Source of the DNA: Candidatus Caldarchaeales archaeon
GTDB lineage: Archaea; Thermoproteota; Nitrososphaeria_A; Caldarchaeales; Calditenuaceae
Assembly (NCBI GenBank): GCA_039630085.1
Contig: JBCNVM010000002.1
Location: 84,721 to 148,720 of the forward strand
Length of the DNA stretch: 64,000 nt
Direction of reading: 5' to 3'
Part shown: positions 5,176 to 64,000 of the stretch, piece by piece
Layout of the letters: the number at the start of each line of letters is the position of its first letter
How positions within the stretch are numbered: position 1 is the stretch's first letter
Notes under the pieces: model-generated
Seen by the model: the letters and a program-made list of their open reading frames with translations, nothing else
The model's database searches: none
Told to the model about the DNA's origin: nothing
Program-made: the position numbers and the translations under genes

Positions 5176-5466
5176 ATGGACGTCAAGACCGAGCTGAGGG
5201 TTCTCAGGAGGACCGGGAAGGTCGTCTTCGGGTTCAGGCAGTCGTACCACGCGCTGATGCGGGGCGAGGCATCGGTCGTGCTGGTCTCGAGCGACTGCCC
5301 GGAGAGGTTCAGGAGGGAGCTGCAGGTGGTGGCCGCGATGAAGGGCGCGAAGGTCGTCGACGCGGGGATCAGCTCCAGCGAGCTCGCGAGGCTGCTCGGA
5401 AAGCCCTTCCACGCATCGACGGTCGCGGTGATCGACGCGGGATCCAGCGGCCTCGGCAAGGGGTGA
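5176..5466 (+). CDS. rpl30e: 50S ribosomal protein L30e
   Basis: RTGKVVFG...ELARLLGKPFHASTVAVIDAGSS; ATG 5176; TTTTAAA box at about 5133-5139. Confidence 0.93.
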   Translation: MDVKTELRVLRRTGKVVFGFRQSYHALMRGEASVVLVSSDCPERFRRELQVVAAMKGAKVVDAGISSSELARLLGKPFHASTVAVIDAGSSGLGKG

Positions 5467-12198: not shown

Positions 12199-12294
12199 GG
12201 GGCCGTAGTCCAGCATGGAGTGGACGCCCGGCTAGCATGGAGTGATGCCCGGACTGGGCCCGGGAGGTCGCCGGTTCAAATCCGGCCGGCCCCA
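12199..12294 (+). tRNA. tRNA-Pro(TGG) with 21-nt non-canonical intron at position 33/34 (12234-12254)
   Basis: Acceptor GGGGCCG/CGGCCCC-A; D stem GTCC/GGAC; T arm GCCGG-TTCAAAT-CCGGC. Splice motif: helix CCGG/CCGG, bulges CT^A and AC^T, intron stem GCAT/ATGC. Splicing restores loop CT-TGG-GC. Confidence 0.92.
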
Positions 12295-12341
12295 CGCGGG
12301 AACACGAGAGCCTCGGCGATGATCCAGCCGGTCGGCGGAGC

Positions 12342-12713
12342 TCAGAGCCTGACCCTGATCCCCTTCGTCACCGCCTCCCGGACCACCGCCTTCCTCTCCC
12401 TGAACGCCTCGACCTGCGCCGGCGTGTATGGGAAGGCCTCGATGGTGAAAGACCCGTCCCAGAGGCCGCTGACCAGCATCGCGTTCTCCACGAAGCTCCG
12501 CTTCCCGAACTCCTCCGAGACGACAAGCATGTCGAGGTCGCTGTCGACCAGCGGAGTGCCGTAGACCCTCGAGCCGAAGAGGTAGACCTCGGTGACGTTC
12601 AGCTCCCGCTTCAGCCTCCTGAGGAACCTGGCGAGCTCGGCACTCTGCCTCCTCGAGAGCCTGACGCGCTCAAGGGCCTCAGTCAGGGAAGCCCCGCCCT
12701 CGACCTGACCCAT
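12342..12713 (-). CDS. Minimal nucleotidyltransferase (MNT antitoxin-like)
   Basis: VYLFGSRVYGTPLVDSDLDMLVV (GS-x10-DxD); start uncertain (ATG 12713, or CTG 12686 overlapping the HEPN stop). Confidence 0.88.
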   Translation of the reverse strand: MGQVEGGASLTEALERVRLSRRQSAELARFLRRLKRELNVTEVYLFGSRVYGTPLVDSDLDMLVVSEEFGKRSFVENAMLVSGLWDGSFTIEAFPYTPAQVEAFRERKAVVREAVTKGIRVRL

Positions 12714-19651: not shown

Positions 19652-20359
19652 CTACCACTTTCCGTTGTAGGCCTCGGAGAGCAGCCTTTTCTCGGAGAGG
19701 ACCTCGTGGGGCTTCCCGACCGCAAAGACGCGCCTGTTGAGGAGCACGACCCTGTCGAAGGGCGTCGGGTCAGGGACGTGGTGCTCCGAGATGAGGACGT
19801 GCTTCCCCCTCCGCTTCTCCTCCTCGAGCGCGGAGATCACCGCTCCCTCGCTGGGCCTGTCGATCGACTCGAAGGGCTCGTCGAGCAGGTAGACGTCCGG
19901 GTCCTGCGCCAGCGCCCTCGCGATCAGCGCCCTCGCGAGCTGACCGCCCGAGAGCTCCGAGAGCCTCCTGTGCCTCAGCCCGGATATCCCCACCCTCTCC
20001 ATCGCCTCGTCGGGGTCTGCCCTGAGGCCACGCCCCCTCGCGACCTCCGAGCCCATCTCCACCAGGTCCATCACCCTCAGCGGCGGGCCGAGCGCGATCG
20101 ACCTCTGCTGCGGGACGTAGGCGACCCTTCTCCTCACGGACCTGTCGGACCAGGGGTCCGAGCCGAGGACCTCGACCCTACCTCTGTAAGGCCTAATCAG
20201 CCCCGCGAAGGCCCTGAGGAGCGTCGACTTGCCCGCGCCGTTGGGGCCCATCAGCAGCACCATCTCGCCCGCGTTCCCCGAGAAGGTCACGCCCTCGAGC
20301 GCCCTGCTCCCGTTGTAGCCCGCGTAGAGGTCGACGGCCCTGACCAGGACCCCCGGCAT
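19652..20359 (-). CDS. Mn/Zn ABC transporter ATPase
   Basis: GPNGAGKST, AYVPQ, LSGGQ, LLDEP. Confidence 0.92.
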   Translation of the reverse strand: MPGVLVRAVDLYAGYNGSRALEGVTFSGNAGEMVLLMGPNGAGKSTLLRAFAGLIRPYRGRVEVLGSDPWSDRSVRRRVAYVPQQRSIALGPPLRVMDLVEMGSEVARGRGLRADPDEAMERVGISGLRHRRLSELSGGQLARALIARALAQDPDVYLLDEPFESIDRPSEGAVISALEEEKRRGKHVLISEHHVPDPTPFDRVVLLNRRVFAVGKPHEVLSEKRLLSEAYNGKW

Positions 20360-20383: not shown

Positions 20384-20446
20384 AATTTTAACCTTCCTTC
20401 ACTTTCCGAGCCGGTCACGGATAAATCGGGCGGCGAAGTTATTCGG

Positions 20447-20513
20447 GGTGCGGCGATGACCGGTCAGGGTTACCGCGACGGAGTGAGCGGAAGGCGTTTG
20501 AGAGAGCCGCGCC
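20447..20513 (+). ncRNA. Candidate double-guide box C/D sRNA targeting 23S rRNA
   Basis: Terminal stem GGTGCGGC/GCCGCGCC; box C-like GCGATGA. Guide GGTCAGGGTTACC pairs with 62167-62179 (13 bp, one G-U). Guide AAGGCGTTTG pairs with 63017-63026 (10 bp, one G-U). D'/D boxes are degenerate (GCGA, GAGA). GATAAAT box about 25 nt upstream. Confidence 0.72.
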
Positions 20514-20568: not shown

Positions 20569-21255
20569 ATGCGTCTCAGTCTAGTGGTCGGGGCGGTCGT
20601 CGCGCTGACGTTACTGTTCGCGGTGTCACCGGTCGCTCAGGCGTCGAGGCCGCTCCCGGGGACGAACTTCGCCAATGCTCCCTCCCTCAGGCCCGGTTCC
20701 TACACCTATGACCTCCAGCCCGGCGACCTCCACTTCTTCAGGGTCGACCTCGTCAAGGGGCAAACGCTCTTCGTGGTGGTCAGGGTTCCGGCTGACCAGG
20801 ACTTCGACGCGGTCCTCTTCTCGCCGGAGAGGGACCCGATCGAGCAGAGCGTGAGGCCGAGGGGATTCTACGAACGGATCTCCTACAAGGCCGTCGCCTC
20901 AGGCCCCCACTACATCGTGGTGTATCCCTTCGGCCCCTCTAGGGGAGTTTACACGCTCGAGGTCTCGGTGCTCGACGAGCCCGCGGTTACGGTCACGGTC
21001 ACCGCGACCGAACTCAGGTACGTCACGGTGACGGTTCCCGGAGCGACTGTAACTGCGCAGGTGGTCTCCTTCAGGACGGTGATGCTCGAGCCGAAGGACG
21101 TCGGGACCGAGGCCTGGAGCGCGATCGGGATGGGGCTGGTCGCGATCGGGCTGGTCGCTACGGCGGTGATCTTCCACGACTCCATCACAAAGCTGAGGGG
21201 GGCTCAGGGCGCCGAGGCGCGGCCTAGGCAGGAGGGTGGAGGCGAGGGAGGGTGA
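20569..21255 (+). CDS. Cell-surface protein with PPC-like beta domain, Thr/Val-rich linker and C-terminal TM anchor
   Basis: Signal peptide, DFDAVLFSP, GVYTLEV, VTVTVT repeats, TM helix. Confidence 0.7.
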   Translation: MRLSLVVGAVVALTLLFAVSPVAQASRPLPGTNFANAPSLRPGSYTYDLQPGDLHFFRVDLVKGQTLFVVVRVPADQDFDAVLFSPERDPIEQSVRPRGFYERISYKAVASGPHYIVVYPFGPSRGVYTLEVSVLDEPAVTVTVTATELRYVTVTVPGATVTAQVVSFRTVMLEPKDVGTEAWSAIGMGLVAIGLVATAVIFHDSITKLRGAQGAEARPRQEGGGEGG

Positions 21256-22061: not shown

Positions 22062-22171
22062 AGCCCGGTCGTCTAGCGGTCAAACTGGCCAGAGGACCAG
22101 GGATTCCGGGCTTTGGATCCCCTCTGGGGAGGAGGAACCCGGAGACGCCGGTTCGAATCCGGCCCGGGCTA
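22062..22171 (+). tRNA. tRNA-Gln(TTG) with two introns: 17 nt at 21/22 (22084-22100) and 20 nt at 37/38 (22117-22136)
   Basis: Acceptor AGCCCGG/CCGGGCT-A. Motif 1: GGTC/GACC helix with AA^A and AG^G bulges. Motif 2: CTTT/GGAG helix with GG^A and GA^A bulges. T arm GCCGG-TTCGAAT-CCGGC. Confidence 0.93.
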
Positions 22172-22308
22172 CCTCAGAGCACGACGTCGAGATGCGAAGG
22201 GCCTCGGTCAGGTCTACTCTGTGGACCGTCAGCTCCCGCTGGGACCTCGCAGGGCACTTGGAGAGCGTCGCGCACGCAAATATACCGGGTCCGACTTCGT
22301 TCGTGGGA

Positions 22309-23286: not shown

Positions 23287-23583
23287 GGGGACGGGCAGCT
23301 GGGCGGGCTTCGGGGAGATCCCGGGGAAGTTCCTCCCTCCCACGGTGGGCCCGGTGCCGCGAGGCACGGGGGGAGACCCCTGGCAACGCCACAGAAACGA
23401 CACCCCTCCGGCCGGATGCGGGCTGACGCGGGAGGTCCCGCCGACGACGGCCGGAGACCGGATGAAACGGGCGTCCCGGGCGGAGAAAGTGACCGGGGCC
23501 GTGAGCCCCACCGTCGAGCCCTGGAGGGACGAGAAGACGGATCCCGCCTAAAACGGAAGGAGGGCTACGGGCTGCCCGTCCCC
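23287..23583 (+). ncRNA. rnpB: RNase P RNA
   Basis: P1 GGGGACGGGCAGC/GCTGCCCGTCCCC; P4 halves GGGGAAGTTCCTCC and AACGGAAGGAGGGCTA; conserved ACAGAAAC and GATGAAAC elements; CTTATA box upstream. Confidence 0.92.
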
Positions 23584-59920: not shown

Positions 59921-60356
59921 GGCGCTAGAGGCCCGACCCGCATTATTTAGGTTGTCTTCCCGCGAGCCCGTTCAGCGGCAGGTCCGTCGGTGCGTTTATT
60001 AGAGAGCGTTCTACCCTACTATAGTTGGCGTGAACGCCGCGGGCGGTAGACCCGCGGCGGGATGCGGGAGCTCATGCTGTGACCGCGTCATGGGAGGGCG
60101 TTGGAGCGCGGCAAGATAGGGCGCGCCTTGGCCCGAGCAGGGGTACGCCGGCCGGTGGATGCCTCGGCTTGGGCGCCGAAGAAGGACGTGGCAAGCTGCG
60201 GTAAGCTCCGGGTACCCGCAGGCAGGGGTGGATCCGGAGATCTCCTAATGGGACATCCCGTGGCGGGCTTCGGCTCGCCGCGTTCCCGGGCGCAAGCCTG
60301 GGATCGGGAACCCCCCGAACGGAAGCATCCAAGTAGGGGGAGGAGGAGAAATCAAA

Positions 60357-60390
<34 letters not shown>

Positions 60391-62181
60391 GCAGCCCAAA
60401 CCGAACCCTTCGGGGAAACTCGGGGGGAATGTGGGGTTATGGGCCGGAGGCCCGCCCTGAAGGCCGAGCCGAACTCCCCTGGAACGGGGGGCCAGAGAGG
60501 GTGAAAGCCCCGTAGGCGAAGGCCGGATGGGCGATGCTCCGGACCCTGAGTACCGCACCTCGGATATGGTGCGGGAAGTCGGGGGCCACTGGCCTCCAAG
60601 GCTAAATACGTCCCAAGACCGATAGCGGACCAGTAGCGTGAGCGAAAGGTGAAAAGTACCCCGGGAGGGGGGTGAAAAGCGCCTGAAACCGGCCGGTAAC
60701 AGACGTGGGCGGCCCGAAAGGGAAATCCCCGTCAAGGCCCCGACGAGGGGCCGCGCGGGGACAATCCCAGGGTCGCCCGCTCCGTCTTGAAACACGGGCC
60801 GGGGAGTTCACGGGTGTGGCGAGTCTAAGGGCTGGAAGCCCGAAGGCGTAGGGAAACCGACCTGCCCGCAGCGGCTTCGGGCCGCGAGGGGCGGGGTCCG
60901 AAAGGGCCTGTAGCCACGCCCGTGAGGCTAGAAACCGGGCGATCTAGCCCTGGGCAGGGCGAAGCCGGGGGAAACCCCGGTCGAGGCCCGAATAGGGGTC
61001 TTGGTGTGCAATTCGGTCCCCTGACCTGGGGCTAGGAGTCAAAAGCTAACCGAGCCCGGTGATAGCTAGTTCCCCCCGAAGTGTCTCGCAGGACAGCCTC
61101 GGGGGAGGTTGCCTGCGGGGTAGGGCACTGATGGGGGAGAAAGGGGCCGATGAGGCCCCGCTCTCCTTTCAAACCACGAACCCGCGGGCGCCGCAGATCC
61201 CGGGAGTGGGGTACTGGGGGTAAGCTCCGGGACCGAGAGGGGAACAACCCAGACCCCGGGTTAAGGCCCCAAAGTGCCCGCTAAGTGACAAACCGAAGGG
61301 CGTCTTCACCCTGAGACAGCGGGGCCGTAGGCTTAGAAGCAGCCATCGGCCAAGAAGTGCGTAACAGCTTACCCGCCGAGGGTGGGGGCCCCGAAAATTG
61401 ACGGGTCTAAGCGGGCCGCCGAAACCCGGGCTCACCCCTGCTCTGCAGGGGTGGGGGTAGGGGGGCGTGGCGGTTGGGCGGAAGCGGGGCCGTGAGGTCC
61501 CGTGGACCGGCCGCCAATGCAGATCCCGGCGGTAGTAGACAGCGAAGAGAGGTGGGAATCCTCTCCGCCGGAAGGGCACGGGTTCCCCGGCAATGCGTCG
61601 TCAGCCGGGGGTAAGCCGGTCCTAAGGCCGACCTTAACCGGGTAGGCCGAAGGGGAAGCCGGTTAAGATTCCGGCGCCTCCCGGGTAGGTGCGGCGACGC
61701 AGGCCGGGCCCCTGACGCTTCGGGGTAGGCCGACCGGGGCCGTAGCTCCGGCCAAGCGCTGAAGCCTGGGGAGTGCCGTAAAGGCGAGAACCAGGTGAAG
61801 GCGCGACGGGGCGGCGTATGCCGCTTCGGCCGATCCCCGGAGCCAGTGAAAAGGGGGTCCGGACCGATCCCGGGAGACCGTACCTAGATCCGACACTGGT
61901 GCCCCTGGCTGAGAAGGCCAAGGCGTCTGGGGTGACTCCGGGCCAGGGAACTCGGCAAAATGGCCCCGTAACCTCGGGAGAAGGGGTGCCTGCTTTCCTC
62001 TCCGACGAGGAGGGGTTGGCAGGTCGCAGTGACCAGGGGGTCCTGACTGTTTAATAAAAACATAGGAAGCCGCGAGGCCGAAAGGCTTCGAACGGCTTCT
62101 GAATCCTGGCCAGCACCGGTACCTGAAACCCGGGTCCAACCGGGATAAGGGCCGGCTAGCGCCGGGGGTAATCCTGACCCT

Positions 62182-63005
62182 CGAGTAAGGGGGTCGTTAA
62201 ACGCGGCTGTATGCGGGGAAGGGCGAGGTCCCGGATACCCTTCGGGGTAACAATTCCGTGACCGGTGAGCTCGACCCGCAGGAAACCGCCCCGTGAACGG
62301 CTAATACCGGACGGCTCGCGGAAAGTCCGGTGACCCTCGCGTACCTGATCGGCGTCATGCTCGGCGACGGCGGCGTCTACGGCAACTACTACACGGTCTT
62401 CTGCAGGGACCAGAGCCTTGAGTTCGTCGAGTACGTCGCCCGCCTCGTGGAGGAACTCTTCGGGATAAGGCCGAACCTGAGGAGGGCAGGCTCAAACCAT
62501 TACATTGCCACGACGAACGTCCGGTGGGTCCACGACTTCCTCCTGAGGATCGGCTTCCCGAAGGGGCGGAAGCTCGTCAACGCTGAGATACCGCCGCTGT
62601 TCAGGGACAGCCTCGACGTCGTTAAGGGGCTCTTCGACACCGAGGGCTACGTCGGGGTCGACGTCCAGCGGCACGGCGAGAGGCAATACCGGTACCCGTA
62701 CGTCGGGTTCGACGTGATCGCGAAGCCCCTCGTCGTCCAGTCGCACCGCATCCTCTCCGCCAACGGGATCCATTCCGCTTATTTTCGGAGAGAACCGCAC
62801 GCGTGGGGAAAACACGTCCAGTGGAGGCTGCAGGTCAAGGGATGGGAGAACGTCGAGCTGTTCCGCGAGAAGGTCGGTTTCAGACACCCCGTCAAGGCGG
62901 AGAAGCTCGAGGAGGTCTTGCGTGAGGGCGGGATCCTCAGAGACCATACGCCGCGCACCCGTCAAGGGTGATGATATGGTCCACCACCGATTCTTGTCGG
63001 TGGAG
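62182..63005 (+). mobile_element. Group I intron (IB-like) at the E. coli L1923-equivalent site, 824 nt
   Basis: Exon ends in U and intron ends in G. P1 GACCCU/GGGGUC with U-G pair; P10 UAAG/CUUA; P3 CGCGGC/GCCGCG; P4 UGCGGG/CCCGCA; P7 GACCA/UGGUC with CAGAGACCAUA and GAUAUGGUC; P8 and P9 hairpins. Confidence 0.93.
62330..62971 (+). CDS. Intron-encoded two-motif LAGLIDADG homing endonuclease
   Basis: Motifs LAYLIGVMLGDGG and VVKGLFDTEGY; FREKVGFRHPVK tail typical of intein-type DOD endonucleases. Confidence 0.93.
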   Translation: MTLAYLIGVMLGDGGVYGNYYTVFCRDQSLEFVEYVARLVEELFGIRPNLRRAGSNHYIATTNVRWVHDFLLRIGFPKGRKLVNAEIPPLFRDSLDVVKGLFDTEGYVGVDVQRHGERQYRYPYVGFDVIAKPLVVQSHRILSANGIHSAYFRREPHAWGKHVQWRLQVKGWENVELFREKVGFRHPVKAEKLEEVLREGGILRDHTPRTRQG

Positions 63006-63311
63006 CTTAAGGTAGCCAAATGCCTTGTCGGGTGAGTTCCGACGCGCATGAATGGATCAACGAGGGCCCCACTGTCCCGGCCCGGAGCCCCGTGAACCCA
63101 CATAACGTGGACGAACAGTCCACGAGCCCCCAGCGGGGAGAGAAGACCCTGTGGAGCTTTACTGCAGCCTGTCGCTGCGGGACGGCTTTGGGTGCATAGC
63201 GTAGCCGGGAGCCGTCGATCCGGACCTCTCCGGGGGTCCGGGGAGGCGCCAATGTAACACCGGCCACCTGGGGCTGTCCCGCTAACCGGGGCCTGTGCCT
63301 TGGGACAACGG

Positions 63312-63342
<31 letters not shown>

Positions 63343-64000
63343 CCCGAAAAGATATCGGGGGAGCCCAAAGGTCGGCTCAGGCGGGACAGAAACCCGCTGT
63401 AGAGTGCAAGGGCAAAAGCCGGCCTGACGGGACCCTCGAACGCGAGGGGTCCTGAGGGGAAACCCGGGCCTAGCGATCCATCGGCCCCTACCAGTGGGGG
63501 CCGGTGGTGACAGAAAAGTTACCCCAGGGATAACAGGCTCGTCGCGGGCGAGAGTCCCCATCGACCCCGCGGCTTGGTACCTCGATGTCGGCTCTTCCCA
63601 TCCTGGCCTCGCAGCAGGGGCCAAGGGTGAGGCTGCTCGCCTATCAAAGGGGAACGTGAGCTGGGTTTAGACCGGCGTGAGCCAGGTCGGATTCTACCTG
63701 CTGGGGGTGCGGGCCGCCTGAGGGTAGGGTCCTCCTAGTACGAGAGGAACGGAGGGCCGGGGCCAACGGTGTACCGGTCGTCCTACAGGGCGACGCCGGG
63801 CAGCCGCGCCCCTGTGGATAAGGGCTGAAAGCATCTAAGCCCGAAGCCACTCCCAAAAATAGGCGGCCGATCGGGGCCTATAGGGCCCGGTAACGGGCCT
63901 TGGGCCCCGACGAGGGCTCCCCTAGAAGAGGGGGTTGATGGGGTGGGCGTGTACGGGCGGAGGCGTAATGCCGGACGCCCTCAGCGCGCCACTCCCAATC

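What the first reader, a model, noticed from the sequence alone, without database searches (positions are those of the whole stretch)
20447..20513. Hidden double-guide C/D-like sRNA whose two targets straddle the 23S group I intron
Seen: an intergenic 67-nt element with its own AT-rich box, a terminal stem and box C-like GCGATGA. Guide 1 (20462-20474) pairs 13 bp with 23S 62167-62179, ending 2 nt before the 5' splice site and covering GACC of P1. Guide 2 (20491-20500) pairs 10 bp with 63017-63026, 11 nt after the 3' splice site. The targets are 13 nt apart after splicing and about 840 nt apart before. Inference: guide 1 competes with the intron's internal guide sequence, so methylation and splicing must be ordered or coupled. 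The sRNP could act as a splicing checkpoint or modulator. D and D' boxes are degenerate, so standard scans could miss it.
Basis: partly seen in the sequence, partly recalled or inferred. Interest (0 to 1): 0.85.

Follow-up and report, generated by a model that had tools for sequence, protein, structure and literature searches.

The report
Conserved C/D guide RNA flanking rRNA intron
This is an ordinary but previously unlisted archaeal methylation-guide RNA whose two targets in the large ribosomal RNA happen to lie on either side of a mobile self-splicing intron; relatives that lack the intron have the guide RNA too.

Summary
Window 20450-20510 (+) is a double-guide box C/D sRNA. Reading against relatives corrects the box register:
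- C box: AUGACCG, 20456-62
- D' box: GCGA, 20475-78
- C' box: GUGAGCG, 20483-89
- D box: GAGA, 20502-05
- two 12-nt guides, a 5-bp terminal stem, and a TATA-like box about 25 nt upstream.

A covariance model finds one full-length copy in 73 of 76 genomes of the order and in 69 of 151 sampled genomes of the phylum. The stem, the K-turn and the K-loop covary. Guide 1 covaries with helix 69 of 23S rRNA.

By the N+5 rule the targets are A62171 (E. coli A1913, helix 69 loop, matching yeast Am2256) and A63020 (A1938).

The insertion at 62182-63005 is a group I intron at LSU/1923. It has a LAGLIDADG gene in L6, and its P1 shares 3-5 nt with the guide-1 target.

The intron is sporadic: 15 of 30 23S loci read have it. 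The sRNA is present with or without it, with identical guides within one genus. So the sRNA is a general rRNA methylation guide and the straddling is incidental. A splicing-checkpoint role is unsupported, though not excluded. No expression data could be obtained.

The parts
20421..20430 (+). TATA-like promoter box (GGATAAATCG), about 25 nt upstream of the terminal stem
   Evidence: Conserved in the five same-genus genomes. An AT-rich box sits at about the same distance in most of the 29 order-wide loci printed (read by eye, not counted).
20450..20454 (+). 5' strand of the terminal stem (GCGGC); extendable to 20447 in this genome
   Evidence: Pairs with 20506-10. Covariation C-G to U-A or A-U at alignment columns 7/67 in 7 of 30 rows. 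Stem cells paired: 97.3%.
20456..20462 (+). Box C, AUGACCG. The RUGA half is canonical and the second half is degenerate. G20455, A20456 and U20457 form the 3-nt K-turn bulge.
   Evidence: Register taken from the order-wide alignment, where relatives read GUGAUGU, AUGAAGA and similar. C position 6 pairs with D position 1: G-C in 25 rows, C-G in 4 rows including this genome, unpaired in 1.
20463..20474 (+). D' guide, 12 nt (GUCAGGGUUACC). It pairs with helix 69 of 23S. Position 5 (U20470) lies opposite A62171.
   Evidence: Positions 3-10 are paired in 26 of 27 genomes of the order where both the sRNA and helix 69 were read.
20475..20478 (+). Box D' (GCGA; CUGA, AUGA, CAGA etc. in relatives)
   Evidence: The GA is invariant. 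D' positions 1-2 covary with C' positions 5-6: 10 and 13 double changes among 30 rows.
20483..20489 (+). Box C' (GUGAGCG; RUGA plus 3 variable nt in relatives)
20490..20501 (+). D guide, 12 nt (GAAGGCGUUUGA). Positions 2-11 pair with 63017-63026. Position 5 (U20497) lies opposite A63020.
   Evidence: The core GGCRUUUG is conserved through the order, and most relatives have A instead of G at the wobble position.
20502..20505 (+). Box D (GAGA here; GUGA in G003; CUGA in most relatives)
20506..20510 (+). 3' strand of the terminal stem (GCCGC); extendable to 20513
62167..62179 (+). Target of the D' guide: most of 23S helix 69 (helix 69 = 62164-62182; the target is E. coli 1909-1921 by my own hand alignment). 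Predicted 2'-O-methylation at A62171 (A1913).
   Evidence: Helix 69 reads GUAAUCCUGA in this genus and GUAACUCUGA in the other genera of the order, and the guides change to match.
63017..63026 (+). Target of the D guide (E. coli 1935-1944). Predicted 2'-O-methylation at A63020 (A1938).
62182..63005 (+). Group I intron at LSU/1923, 824 nt. Helices: P1 62175-81/62190-96 (U.G at the 5' splice site); P10 63006-09/62186-89; P3 62202-07/62950-55; P4 62212-17/62275-80; P6 62286-91/62926-31; P7 62942-48/62975-81; P8 62956-60/62966-70; P9 62984-90/62997-63003. The last base, G63005, is the terminal G.
   Evidence: Boundaries from intron-less G001. Helices placed. Covariation on 14 introns: 97.2% of cells paired, 13 pairs with changes on both sides, U.G at the splice site in 14 of 14.
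62330..62971 (+). LAGLIDADG homing endonuclease ORF (213 aa) in the P6 loop. Its 3' end overlaps P6', P7, P3' and P8.
   Evidence: ORF. Pfam LAGLIDADG_3, E 4.7e-13.

Best explanation
Window 20450-20510 (+) is an independently transcribed, canonical double-guide box C/D sRNA.

How it most likely works (inferred steps):
- Its terminal C/D K-turn and its internal C'/D' K-loop are bound by L7Ae.
- Nop5 and fibrillarin then assemble on it.
- The two 12-nt guides pair with 23S rRNA over about 10 bp each.
- Fibrillarin 2'-O-methylates the nucleotide opposite guide position 5. That is A1913 in the helix 69 loop for the D' guide (window 62171) and A1938 for the D guide (window 63020). The two sites are 25 nt apart in mature rRNA.
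- Like other double guides with close targets, it probably also holds this stretch open during folding.

What is shown: conservation, box architecture, covariation, guide-target complementarity, and the presence of the three protein genes. What is inferred: transcription, RNP assembly and the methylations themselves.

The group I intron at LSU/1923 lies between the two targets only because this mobile element homes into the same conserved, modification-dense stretch. The sRNA predates the intron and occurs without it.

Where both are present, three structures compete for nucleotides 1917-1921: P1, the guide duplex and helix 69. The most likely order is that P1 forms first, because it is a local hairpin that is complete about 15 nt after the splice site. 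Splicing follows, and then the sRNP acts on the ligated exons.
For: Distribution. One full-length match per genome in 73 of 76 genomes of the order. A match in 69 of 151 sampled genomes of the phylum, of which 51 of 133 lie outside the order.

Architecture. Spacers are 12 and 12 nt. The GA of all four boxes is invariant in the 30 aligned rows.

Covariation. 93.3% of 240 cells are paired, against a shuffled mean of 78.3%; 0 of 500 shuffles reach the observed value. When the 3' partners are slid, only 24-53% are paired. The C6-D1 pair is G-C in 25 rows and C-G in 4. The D'/C' pairs carry 10 and 13 double changes.

Guide-target co-variation. Helix 69 GUAAUCCUGA goes with guide UCAGGRUUAC. Helix 69 GUAACUCUGA goes with guide UCAGAGUUAY.

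Chance control. Both guides match within 100 nt in 0 of 20000 shuffles. Both N+5 nucleotides are A, 25 nt apart.

Promoter. A TATA-like box lies upstream.

Machinery. Fibrillarin, Nop5 and L7Ae genes are in the same genome.

Literature, passages seen:
- Helices 68, 69 and 71 are methylation hotspots, and 262 of 489 archaeal sRNAs are double guides (PMC4644070).
- Yeast Psi2258 and Psi2260 correspond to E. coli 1915 and 1917, so Am2256 (snR63) corresponds to A1913 by arithmetic (PMC2794176).

Independence from the intron. All 13 intron-less genomes read have the sRNA, and guides are the same within genera g3 and g7.
Against: - No transcript evidence: no RNA run was listed.
- No Rfam family matches.
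- In this genus D (GAGA) and D' (GCGA) depart from CUGA, and the second halves of C and C' are degenerate.
- Both guides in G000 have a G.U at position 6, next to the target nucleotide, which could lower activity.
- The last guide base before D' is C. In yeast snR13 this shifts methylation by one nucleotide (PMC5389607), so the exact methylated nucleotide is uncertain by +/-1.
- In 4 of 5 out-of-order genomes checked, the D' guide has an A.C mismatch at position 8 against their helix 69.
- Within genus g1, the two intron-bearing genomes with an sRNA (G000, G003) have the G.U variants and pairing out to guide position 13, into P1. The two intron-less ones (G001, G005) have A-U. With n = 2 against 2 this cannot be separated from phylogeny.
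- E. coli numbering rests on my own hand alignment to a recalled helix 69 sequence.
Confidence: 0.85

Rival explanations
1. The sRNP is functionally coupled to the L1923 group I intron. By pairing with the exon strand of P1, and with exon 2, it would delay, license or assist splicing, acting as a checkpoint, a modulator or an exon tether.
For: - The guide-1 target (62167-79) and P1 (62175-81) share 5 nt here, and 3 nt for the conserved core.
- Naked-RNA energies at 37 C: guide duplex -22.7, P1 hairpin -13.2, helix 69 hairpin -6.9 kcal/mol. The sRNA could therefore in principle displace P1.
- The two guides bind one exon each.
- The intron is common in the order: 15 of 30 loci.
Against: - The sRNA is near-universal in the order (73 of 76) and also occurs outside it, whereas the intron is sporadic.
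- All 13 intron-less genomes read have the sRNA.
- Guides are identical, or differ only at position 1, between intron-bearing and intron-less species of genera g3 and g7.
- P10 (63006-09) does not overlap target 2.
- Target pairs this close are the norm for archaeal double guides (PMC4644070).
- In Tetrahymena the rRNA group I intron is described as spliced early in maturation (PMC6315972, passage seen).
Confidence: 0.07
2. In this genus the RNA still binds rRNA but has lost, or nearly lost, methylation activity. The cause would be the non-consensus boxes and the G.U pairs beside both target nucleotides. It would then act mainly as a folding chaperone for helices 69-71.
For: - D is GAGA and D' is GCGA.
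- There is a G.U at guide position 6 in both guides of G000, G003, G004 and G006.
- A chaperone role has been proposed for double guides (PMC4644070).
Against: - The GA dinucleotides needed for the sheared pairs are intact.
- The changed box positions are compensated. C6-D1 is C-G instead of G-C, and D' positions 1-2 form G-C and C-G pairs with C' positions 5-6. This argues for selection on a working K-turn and K-loop.
- The N+5 pair itself is a Watson-Crick U-A in both guides.
Confidence: 0.08
3. It is not an sRNA gene. It would be a chance motif, or a cis-regulatory K-turn in the leader of the downstream gene (ORF 20569-21255).
For: - It lies 56 nt upstream of an ORF.
- No expression data are available.
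Against: - Only the 61-nt core is conserved across the order. The flanks differ between genera.
- A separate TATA-like box (CCTTTATCTC, about 20531-40) sits between it and the ORF.
- Both guides track the rRNA sequence.
Confidence: 0.02

Closest known systems
Archaeal double-guide box C/D sRNAs (Sulfolobus, Pyrobaculum and Pyrococcus sR families; Dennis et al. 2015, PMC4644070; Lui et al. 2018, PMC6009581)
   Same: - About 60 nt long, with C/D K-turn and C'/D' K-loop architecture and 12-nt spacers.
- About 10-bp guide-target duplexes, read by the N+5 rule.
- Two targets within 100 nt of each other.
- Targets in the helix 68-71 methylation hotspot.
- Its own promoter in an intergenic region.
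   Different: - Both guides are conserved across a whole order and in part of the phylum sample. The papers (passages seen) say exact sites are generally not conserved between lineages.
- In this genus the D and D' boxes are GAGA and GCGA, with compensating changes in C and C'.
- No named family or Rfam model matches.
- I could not see the papers' supplements, which may list an equivalent sRNA in Sulfolobus or Pyrobaculum.
Yeast snR63 (25S Am2256; human A3739) and snR13 (25S Am2280/2281)
   Same: - The predicted D' target A1913 equals yeast Am2256. This follows by arithmetic from PMC2794176.
- The predicted D target A1938 would equal Am2281 by the same offset. That is my inference, which assumes no indel in between. 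PMC5389607 confirms only that snR13 guides L2280 and L2281.
   Different: In eukaryotes two separate snoRNAs guide these sites; here one sRNA carries both guides. Common descent was not tested.
IB4 group I introns at LSU/1923 in archaea (Nawrocki, Jones and Eddy 2018, PMC6125680)
   Same: - The same insertion position. Table 1 of the paper, seen, lists IB4.7 and IB4.9 at LSU/1923, IB4.9 in an aigarchaeal genome.
- A LAGLIDADG ORF.
- A host from the same broad lineage. The sRNA sequence found in G001 also occurs in a named record titled Candidatus Calditenuis fumarioli.
   Different: Subgroup IB4 was not tested here because no IB4 model was available. Rfam's group I model gives no hit even at E<=10.
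Tetrahymena LSU group I intron (L1925, position recalled) flanked by eukaryotic helix 69 and helix 71 modification sites
   Same: A self-splicing intron sits at the base of helix 69, between guide-RNA-directed modification sites. Splicing is described there as an early maturation step (PMC6315972).
   Different: It is a eukaryotic nuclear system. The insertion position L1925 is recalled and comes from no call.

Membership tests
Box C/D sRNA | Terminal box C (RUGAUGA) and box D (CUGA) that can form a K-turn: a stem, a 3-nt bulge and tandem G.A pairs | tested here: met
   The layout is stem GCGGC/GCCGC, bulge GAU, then G20458-A20459 opposite G20504-A20505. C matches the consensus at 4 of 7 positions and D at 2 of 4 (the GA). 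The C6-D1 pair covaries: G-C in 25 rows, C-G in 4.
Box C/D sRNA | Internal D' and C' boxes that form a K-loop | tested here: met
   D' is GCGA and C' is GUGAGCG, with a 4-nt linker. D' positions 1-2 covary with C' positions 5-6 (10 and 13 double changes among 30 rows; 81.7% of cells paired).
Box C/D sRNA | Spacers of about 12 nt between C and D' and between C' and D | tested here: met
   The spacers are 20463-74 and 20490-501, 12 nt each, once the C box is placed by the alignment.
Box C/D sRNA | Guide complementarity of 9 bp or more to rRNA or tRNA, with a Watson-Crick pair at N+5 | tested here: met
   Each guide pairs over 10 bp at positions 2-11, with U-A at N+5 in both. Guide 1 co-varies with helix 69 across genera.
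Box C/D sRNA | L7Ae, Nop5 and fibrillarin present and bound to the RNA | tested here: inconclusive
   The genes are present in G000 (fibrillarin 305 bits, Nop 233 bits, L7Ae 104 bits). Binding cannot be tested with these tools.
Box C/D sRNA | Expressed as a discrete small RNA of 50-70 nt | not testable with these tools
   No RNA run was listed. A conserved upstream TATA-like box is the only indirect support.
Box C/D sRNA | 2'-O-methylation at the predicted nucleotides | not testable with these tools
   This needs RiboMeth-seq, primer extension or mass spectrometry.
Group I intron | P1 formed by the exon end and an internal guide sequence, with U.G at the 5' splice site; a terminal G; P10 with exon 2 | tested here: met
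   P1 has 7 bp, and the U.G is present in 14 of 14 introns. One P1 pair covaries with the exon (C-G in 8, U-A in 6). All 14 introns end in G. P10 is 4 bp in G000 but weaker in some relatives (my reading).
Group I intron | Conserved core: P3-P7 pseudoknot, P4-P6, P8, P9 | tested here: met
   44 pairs on 14 introns. 97.2% are paired, 13 pairs have changes on both sides, 0 of 500 shuffles reach the covariation score, and slid controls give 40-45% paired.
Group I intron | Match to a curated group I model (Rfam RF00028) | tested here: not met
   No hit at E<=10 in 62100-63100. PMC6125680 used subtype-specific IB4 and IA3 models to find archaeal group I introns; those models were not available here.
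Archaeal bulge-helix-bulge intron | Two 3-nt bulges separated by a 4-bp helix at the exon-intron junctions | not tested
   I looked only by eye in the sequence and saw no such motif. The group I structure accounts for both junctions.

The most novel reading that the evidence does not exclude
In the roughly half of these archaea that carry the LSU/1923 group I intron, the sRNP and the ribozyme compete for nucleotides 1917-1921 of the pre-rRNA. The sRNP could then set the timing of self-splicing, or hold the two exons together through its two guides. This would be a trans-acting guide RNP modulating a group I ribozyme.
Probability: 0.07. Interest if true: 0.65.

Novelty: new member of a known kind. 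Interest (0 to 1): 0.3.

Why it matters
It adds a well-supported and deeply conserved double-guide C/D sRNA family to a lineage for which my one literature search on the point found nothing. That search returned a single review holding both 'Aigarchaeota' and 'box sRNA'.

It predicts that the ribose methylation of the helix 69 loop adenosine A1913, known in yeast and human, is also made in these archaea.

It gives a covariance model, built here, that finds the gene where Rfam finds nothing.

It also documents that the LSU/1923 group I intron is widespread but patchy in this order. That patchiness offers natural intron-bearing and intron-less species pairs for asking how rRNA modification and self-splicing are ordered. 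The link that made the finding look exciting is not supported.

Tried and rejected
Tried without result:
- Rfam at the element, E<=10: nothing.
- Rfam at the intron: only rRNA matches and no group I hit.
- Public sequencing runs: no RNA holder was listed.
It gave 114 stretches, mostly chance hits in bacteria. Only L041 and L100 were true homologues.
- Running model R1 on the whole window with filters off found no second copy. The next best hit had E 0.5.
- The 'class' search returned the same 76 genomes as the 'order' search and added nothing.

Considered and dropped:
- My first box model (C = GCGAUGA, a 15-nt spacer, no K-turn bulge) was replaced after the order-wide alignment.
- A bulge-helix-bulge intron was my initial expectation. 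I dropped it once P1, P10 and the terminal G were seen and the core covaried.
- I looked for a link between guide extension into P1 and intron presence. There is no pattern outside genus g1, and within g1 it is 2 genomes against 2.

Limits:
- G002 (intron-bearing, 84% complete) and G034 gave no sRNA match.
- The 23S region was assembled in only 39 of 76 genomes, and I read 30 of those 39.
- Supplements of the cited papers were not seen. They may list an equivalent sRNA.
- For every cited paper I saw only search listings, abstract starts and the passages or the one section named by call number. I read no whole text.

Full report
**What is in the sequence**

The intergenic stretch between a minus-strand ORF that starts at 20359 and a plus-strand ORF that starts at 20569 holds the element.
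- 20462-20474 pairs with 62167-62179 (13 bp, one G.U).
- 20491-20500 pairs with 63017-63026 (10 bp, one G.U).

Rfam places an archaeal 23S rRNA at 60146-64000. It finds nothing at the element even at E<=10.

**Relatives and the true box register**

BLAST found the element in four genomes of the same genus, and the conservation is confined to the element itself. I built a covariance model from these five sequences.
- It finds exactly one full-length match in 73 of 76 genomes of the order.
- It finds a match in 69 of 151 sampled genomes of the phylum, 51 of 133 outside the order.

The aligned matches show a textbook box C/D sRNA. In most relatives D and D' read CUGA or xxGA, and the C box reads RUGAUGx. 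This fixes the register in the window as follows:
- stem 20450-54 / 20506-10
- K-turn bulge G-A-U
- C box AUGACCG, 20456-62
- 12-nt D' guide, 20463-74
- D' GCGA, 20475-78
- 4-nt linker
- C' GUGAGCG, 20483-89
- 12-nt D guide, 20490-501
- D GAGA, 20502-05

The apparent oddities of my first model (a 15-nt spacer and no bulge) disappear.

**Covariation in the sRNA**

Counts are on 30 aligned homologues.
- 93.3% of 240 cells form standard pairs, against a shuffled mean of 78.3%; 0 of 500 shuffles are as high. Slid controls give 24-53%.
- The terminal stem has C-G to U-A or A-U changes in 7 rows.
- C-box position 6 pairs with D-box position 1 as G-C in 25 rows and as C-G in 4 rows. Those 4 are this genus, which explains its GAGA box D.
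- D' positions 1-2 pair with C' positions 5-6, with 10 and 13 double changes.

This alignment was fitted to the model, which favours the structure somewhat.

**Guides and targets**

In the 27 genomes of the order where I read both the sRNA and helix 69, D' guide positions 3-10 are paired in 26. In this genus helix 69 reads GUAAUCCUGA and the guide reads UCAGGRUUAC. In the other genera helix 69 reads GUAACUCUGA and the guide reads UCAGAGUUAY. The guide thus follows the target. G001 and G005 carry A where G000 carries G at the wobble position of both guides, which turns G.U into A-U.

By the N+5 rule the targets are A62171 and A63020. Both are adenosines, 25 nt apart in the spliced rRNA.

By my own hand alignment to the recalled E. 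coli helix 69 sequence these are A1913 and A1938. The alignment is consistent with the intron position LSU/1923 given in the paper. PMC2794176 (passages) equates yeast Psi2258 and Psi2260 with E. coli 1915 and 1917, so Am2256 (snR63) corresponds to A1913. By the same offset A1938 would be yeast Am2281, which snR13 guides (PMC5389607). That last step is inference.

As a chance control, single shuffled guides match somewhere in the spliced 23S in 349 and 165 of 20000 trials. Both match within 100 nt in 0 of 20000.

**Promoter and machinery**

A TATA-like box about 25 nt upstream is conserved in the genus and is visible by eye in most order-wide loci. Fibrillarin and Nop5 (adjacent genes) and L7Ae are encoded in the same genome. 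No RNA run could be listed, so expression is unproven.

**The intron**

The 23S of G001 lacks the insertion, and its two exon matches abut. This fixes the intron at 62182-63005, with one C ambiguous. It is a group I intron, on these grounds:
- The exon end UGACCCU pairs with GGGGUCG 9 nt downstream (P1), with U.G at the splice site.
- UAAG just 5' of that pairs with exon 2 CUUA (P10).
- The last intron base is G.
- P3, P4, P6, P7, P8 and P9 can be placed.

On 14 introns from the order, 97.2% of 607 cells pair and 13 of 44 pairs have changes on both sides. The U.G is present in 14 of 14, and slid controls give 40-45%. The internal guide sequence changes with the exon: GACCCU pairs with GGGGUC, and GACUCU pairs with GGAGUC.

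The 213-aa ORF in the P6 loop is a LAGLIDADG protein. Rfam's group I model does not detect the intron. PMC6125680 (passages and Table 1) found archaeal group I introns only with subtype models and lists IB4 introns at LSU/1923, one of them in an aigarchaeal genome. The subgroup was not tested here.

**Does the sRNA belong to the intron?**

The evidence says no.
- The 23S region is assembled in 39 of 76 genomes of the order, and I read 30 of these.
- Of the 30, 15 have a 755-1137-nt insertion at this site. For G018 helix 69 lay outside the locus, so its length is unknown.
- 13 have no insertion, and 2 have a different insertion 3 nt downstream.
- The sRNA is present in 28 of the 30. It was not found in G002 or G034.
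- In genus g3 the guide is identical in intron-less G008 and intron-bearing G012, G015 and G017.
- In g7, intron-less G030 differs from intron-bearing G021 and G024 only at guide position 1.

One observation goes the other way. In genus g1, the two intron-bearing genomes with an sRNA have G.U variants and pairing that runs two positions further into P1. The two intron-less ones do not. That is 2 against 2 and is confounded with relatedness.

**What the overlap means**

P1 (1917-1923), the guide-1 duplex (1910-1919 conserved; 1909-1921 here) and helix 69 itself (1906-1924) cannot all form at once. Naked-RNA energies at 37 C are -13.2 kcal/mol for P1, -22.7 for the guide duplex and -6.9 for helix 69. 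These numbers ignore proteins, concentration and temperature.

P1 is a local hairpin that is complete about 15 nt after the splice site. The second target appears 840 nt later. The simplest order is therefore P1 first, then splicing, then the sRNP acting on the ligated exons. This is inference. In Tetrahymena the rRNA group I intron is described as spliced early (PMC6315972).

Close target pairs are normal for archaeal double guides (262 of 489), and helices 68, 69 and 71 are hotspots (PMC4644070). A homing endonuclease that targets this conserved stretch will therefore often land between guide targets.

**Verdict**

This is a solid, deeply conserved and previously unlisted member of the box C/D sRNA class. 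It sits beside a known kind of archaeal group I intron. The structural competition follows from the sequences. The proposed checkpoint function is unsupported by the comparative data, though not excluded.

Noticed in passing
window 62182-63005; loci L180-L209: The LSU/1923 group I intron is patchy in the order: 15 of 30 23S loci read have it. It carries at least three clearly different ORF versions in the same ribozyme frame, with lengths of about 755-780, 823-860 and 1132-1137 nt. The ORF regions do not align between the groups in alignment A6.
   Followed up: partly
L185 (G034), L207 (G037), L240 (G112); by pattern mismatch also G029, G031, G063, G064: A second insertion lies 3 nt downstream of the LSU/1923 site. 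The rRNA resumes as ...GGGAGA|AAGGTAGCC. The insertion is 556 nt in G034 and only 57 nt in G037. Its intron type (group I or bulge-helix-bulge) was not determined.
   Followed up: no
L231, L232, L233, L235, L239 (families f13 and f17 of the phylum sample): Out-of-order homologues keep both guides, but the D' guide reads GUCAAAGUUAC. In the 4 of these genomes whose 23S I checked (G089, G112, G117, G126), helix 69 was visible in 3 and reads GUAACUCUGAC. That leaves an A.C mismatch at guide position 8.
   Followed up: partly
L210, L211, L215, L216 (G015, G008, G017, G012; genus g3): In these four genomes the C' region is rearranged. A good UGAUGU motif lies 3 nt upstream of the position where the C' box sits in relatives, which would give a 15-nt D spacer.
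   Followed up: no
window 12199-12294 and 22086-22173: Rfam calls a tRNA at 12199-12294 (96 nt) that ARAGORN does not report. ARAGORN calls a tRNA-Pro at 22086-22173 that Rfam's gathering list lacks. Both are longer than a plain tRNA and probably contain introns.
   Followed up: no
window 12313-12360: Just downstream of the 12199-12294 tRNA there is a GGCGATGA motif followed by two CTGA motifs. Model R1 gives only a weak hit there (12308-12336, E 0.81). It may be another C/D-like RNA; this is unverified.
   Followed up: no
window 23291-23579: A full-length archaeal RNase P RNA (Rfam RF00373, 142.7 bits).
   Followed up: no
window 5179-5448 (+): A second, weaker L7Ae-family match (PF01248, 52.4 bits) lies inside the window. 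The stronger one (104.3 bits) is on another contig.
   Followed up: no
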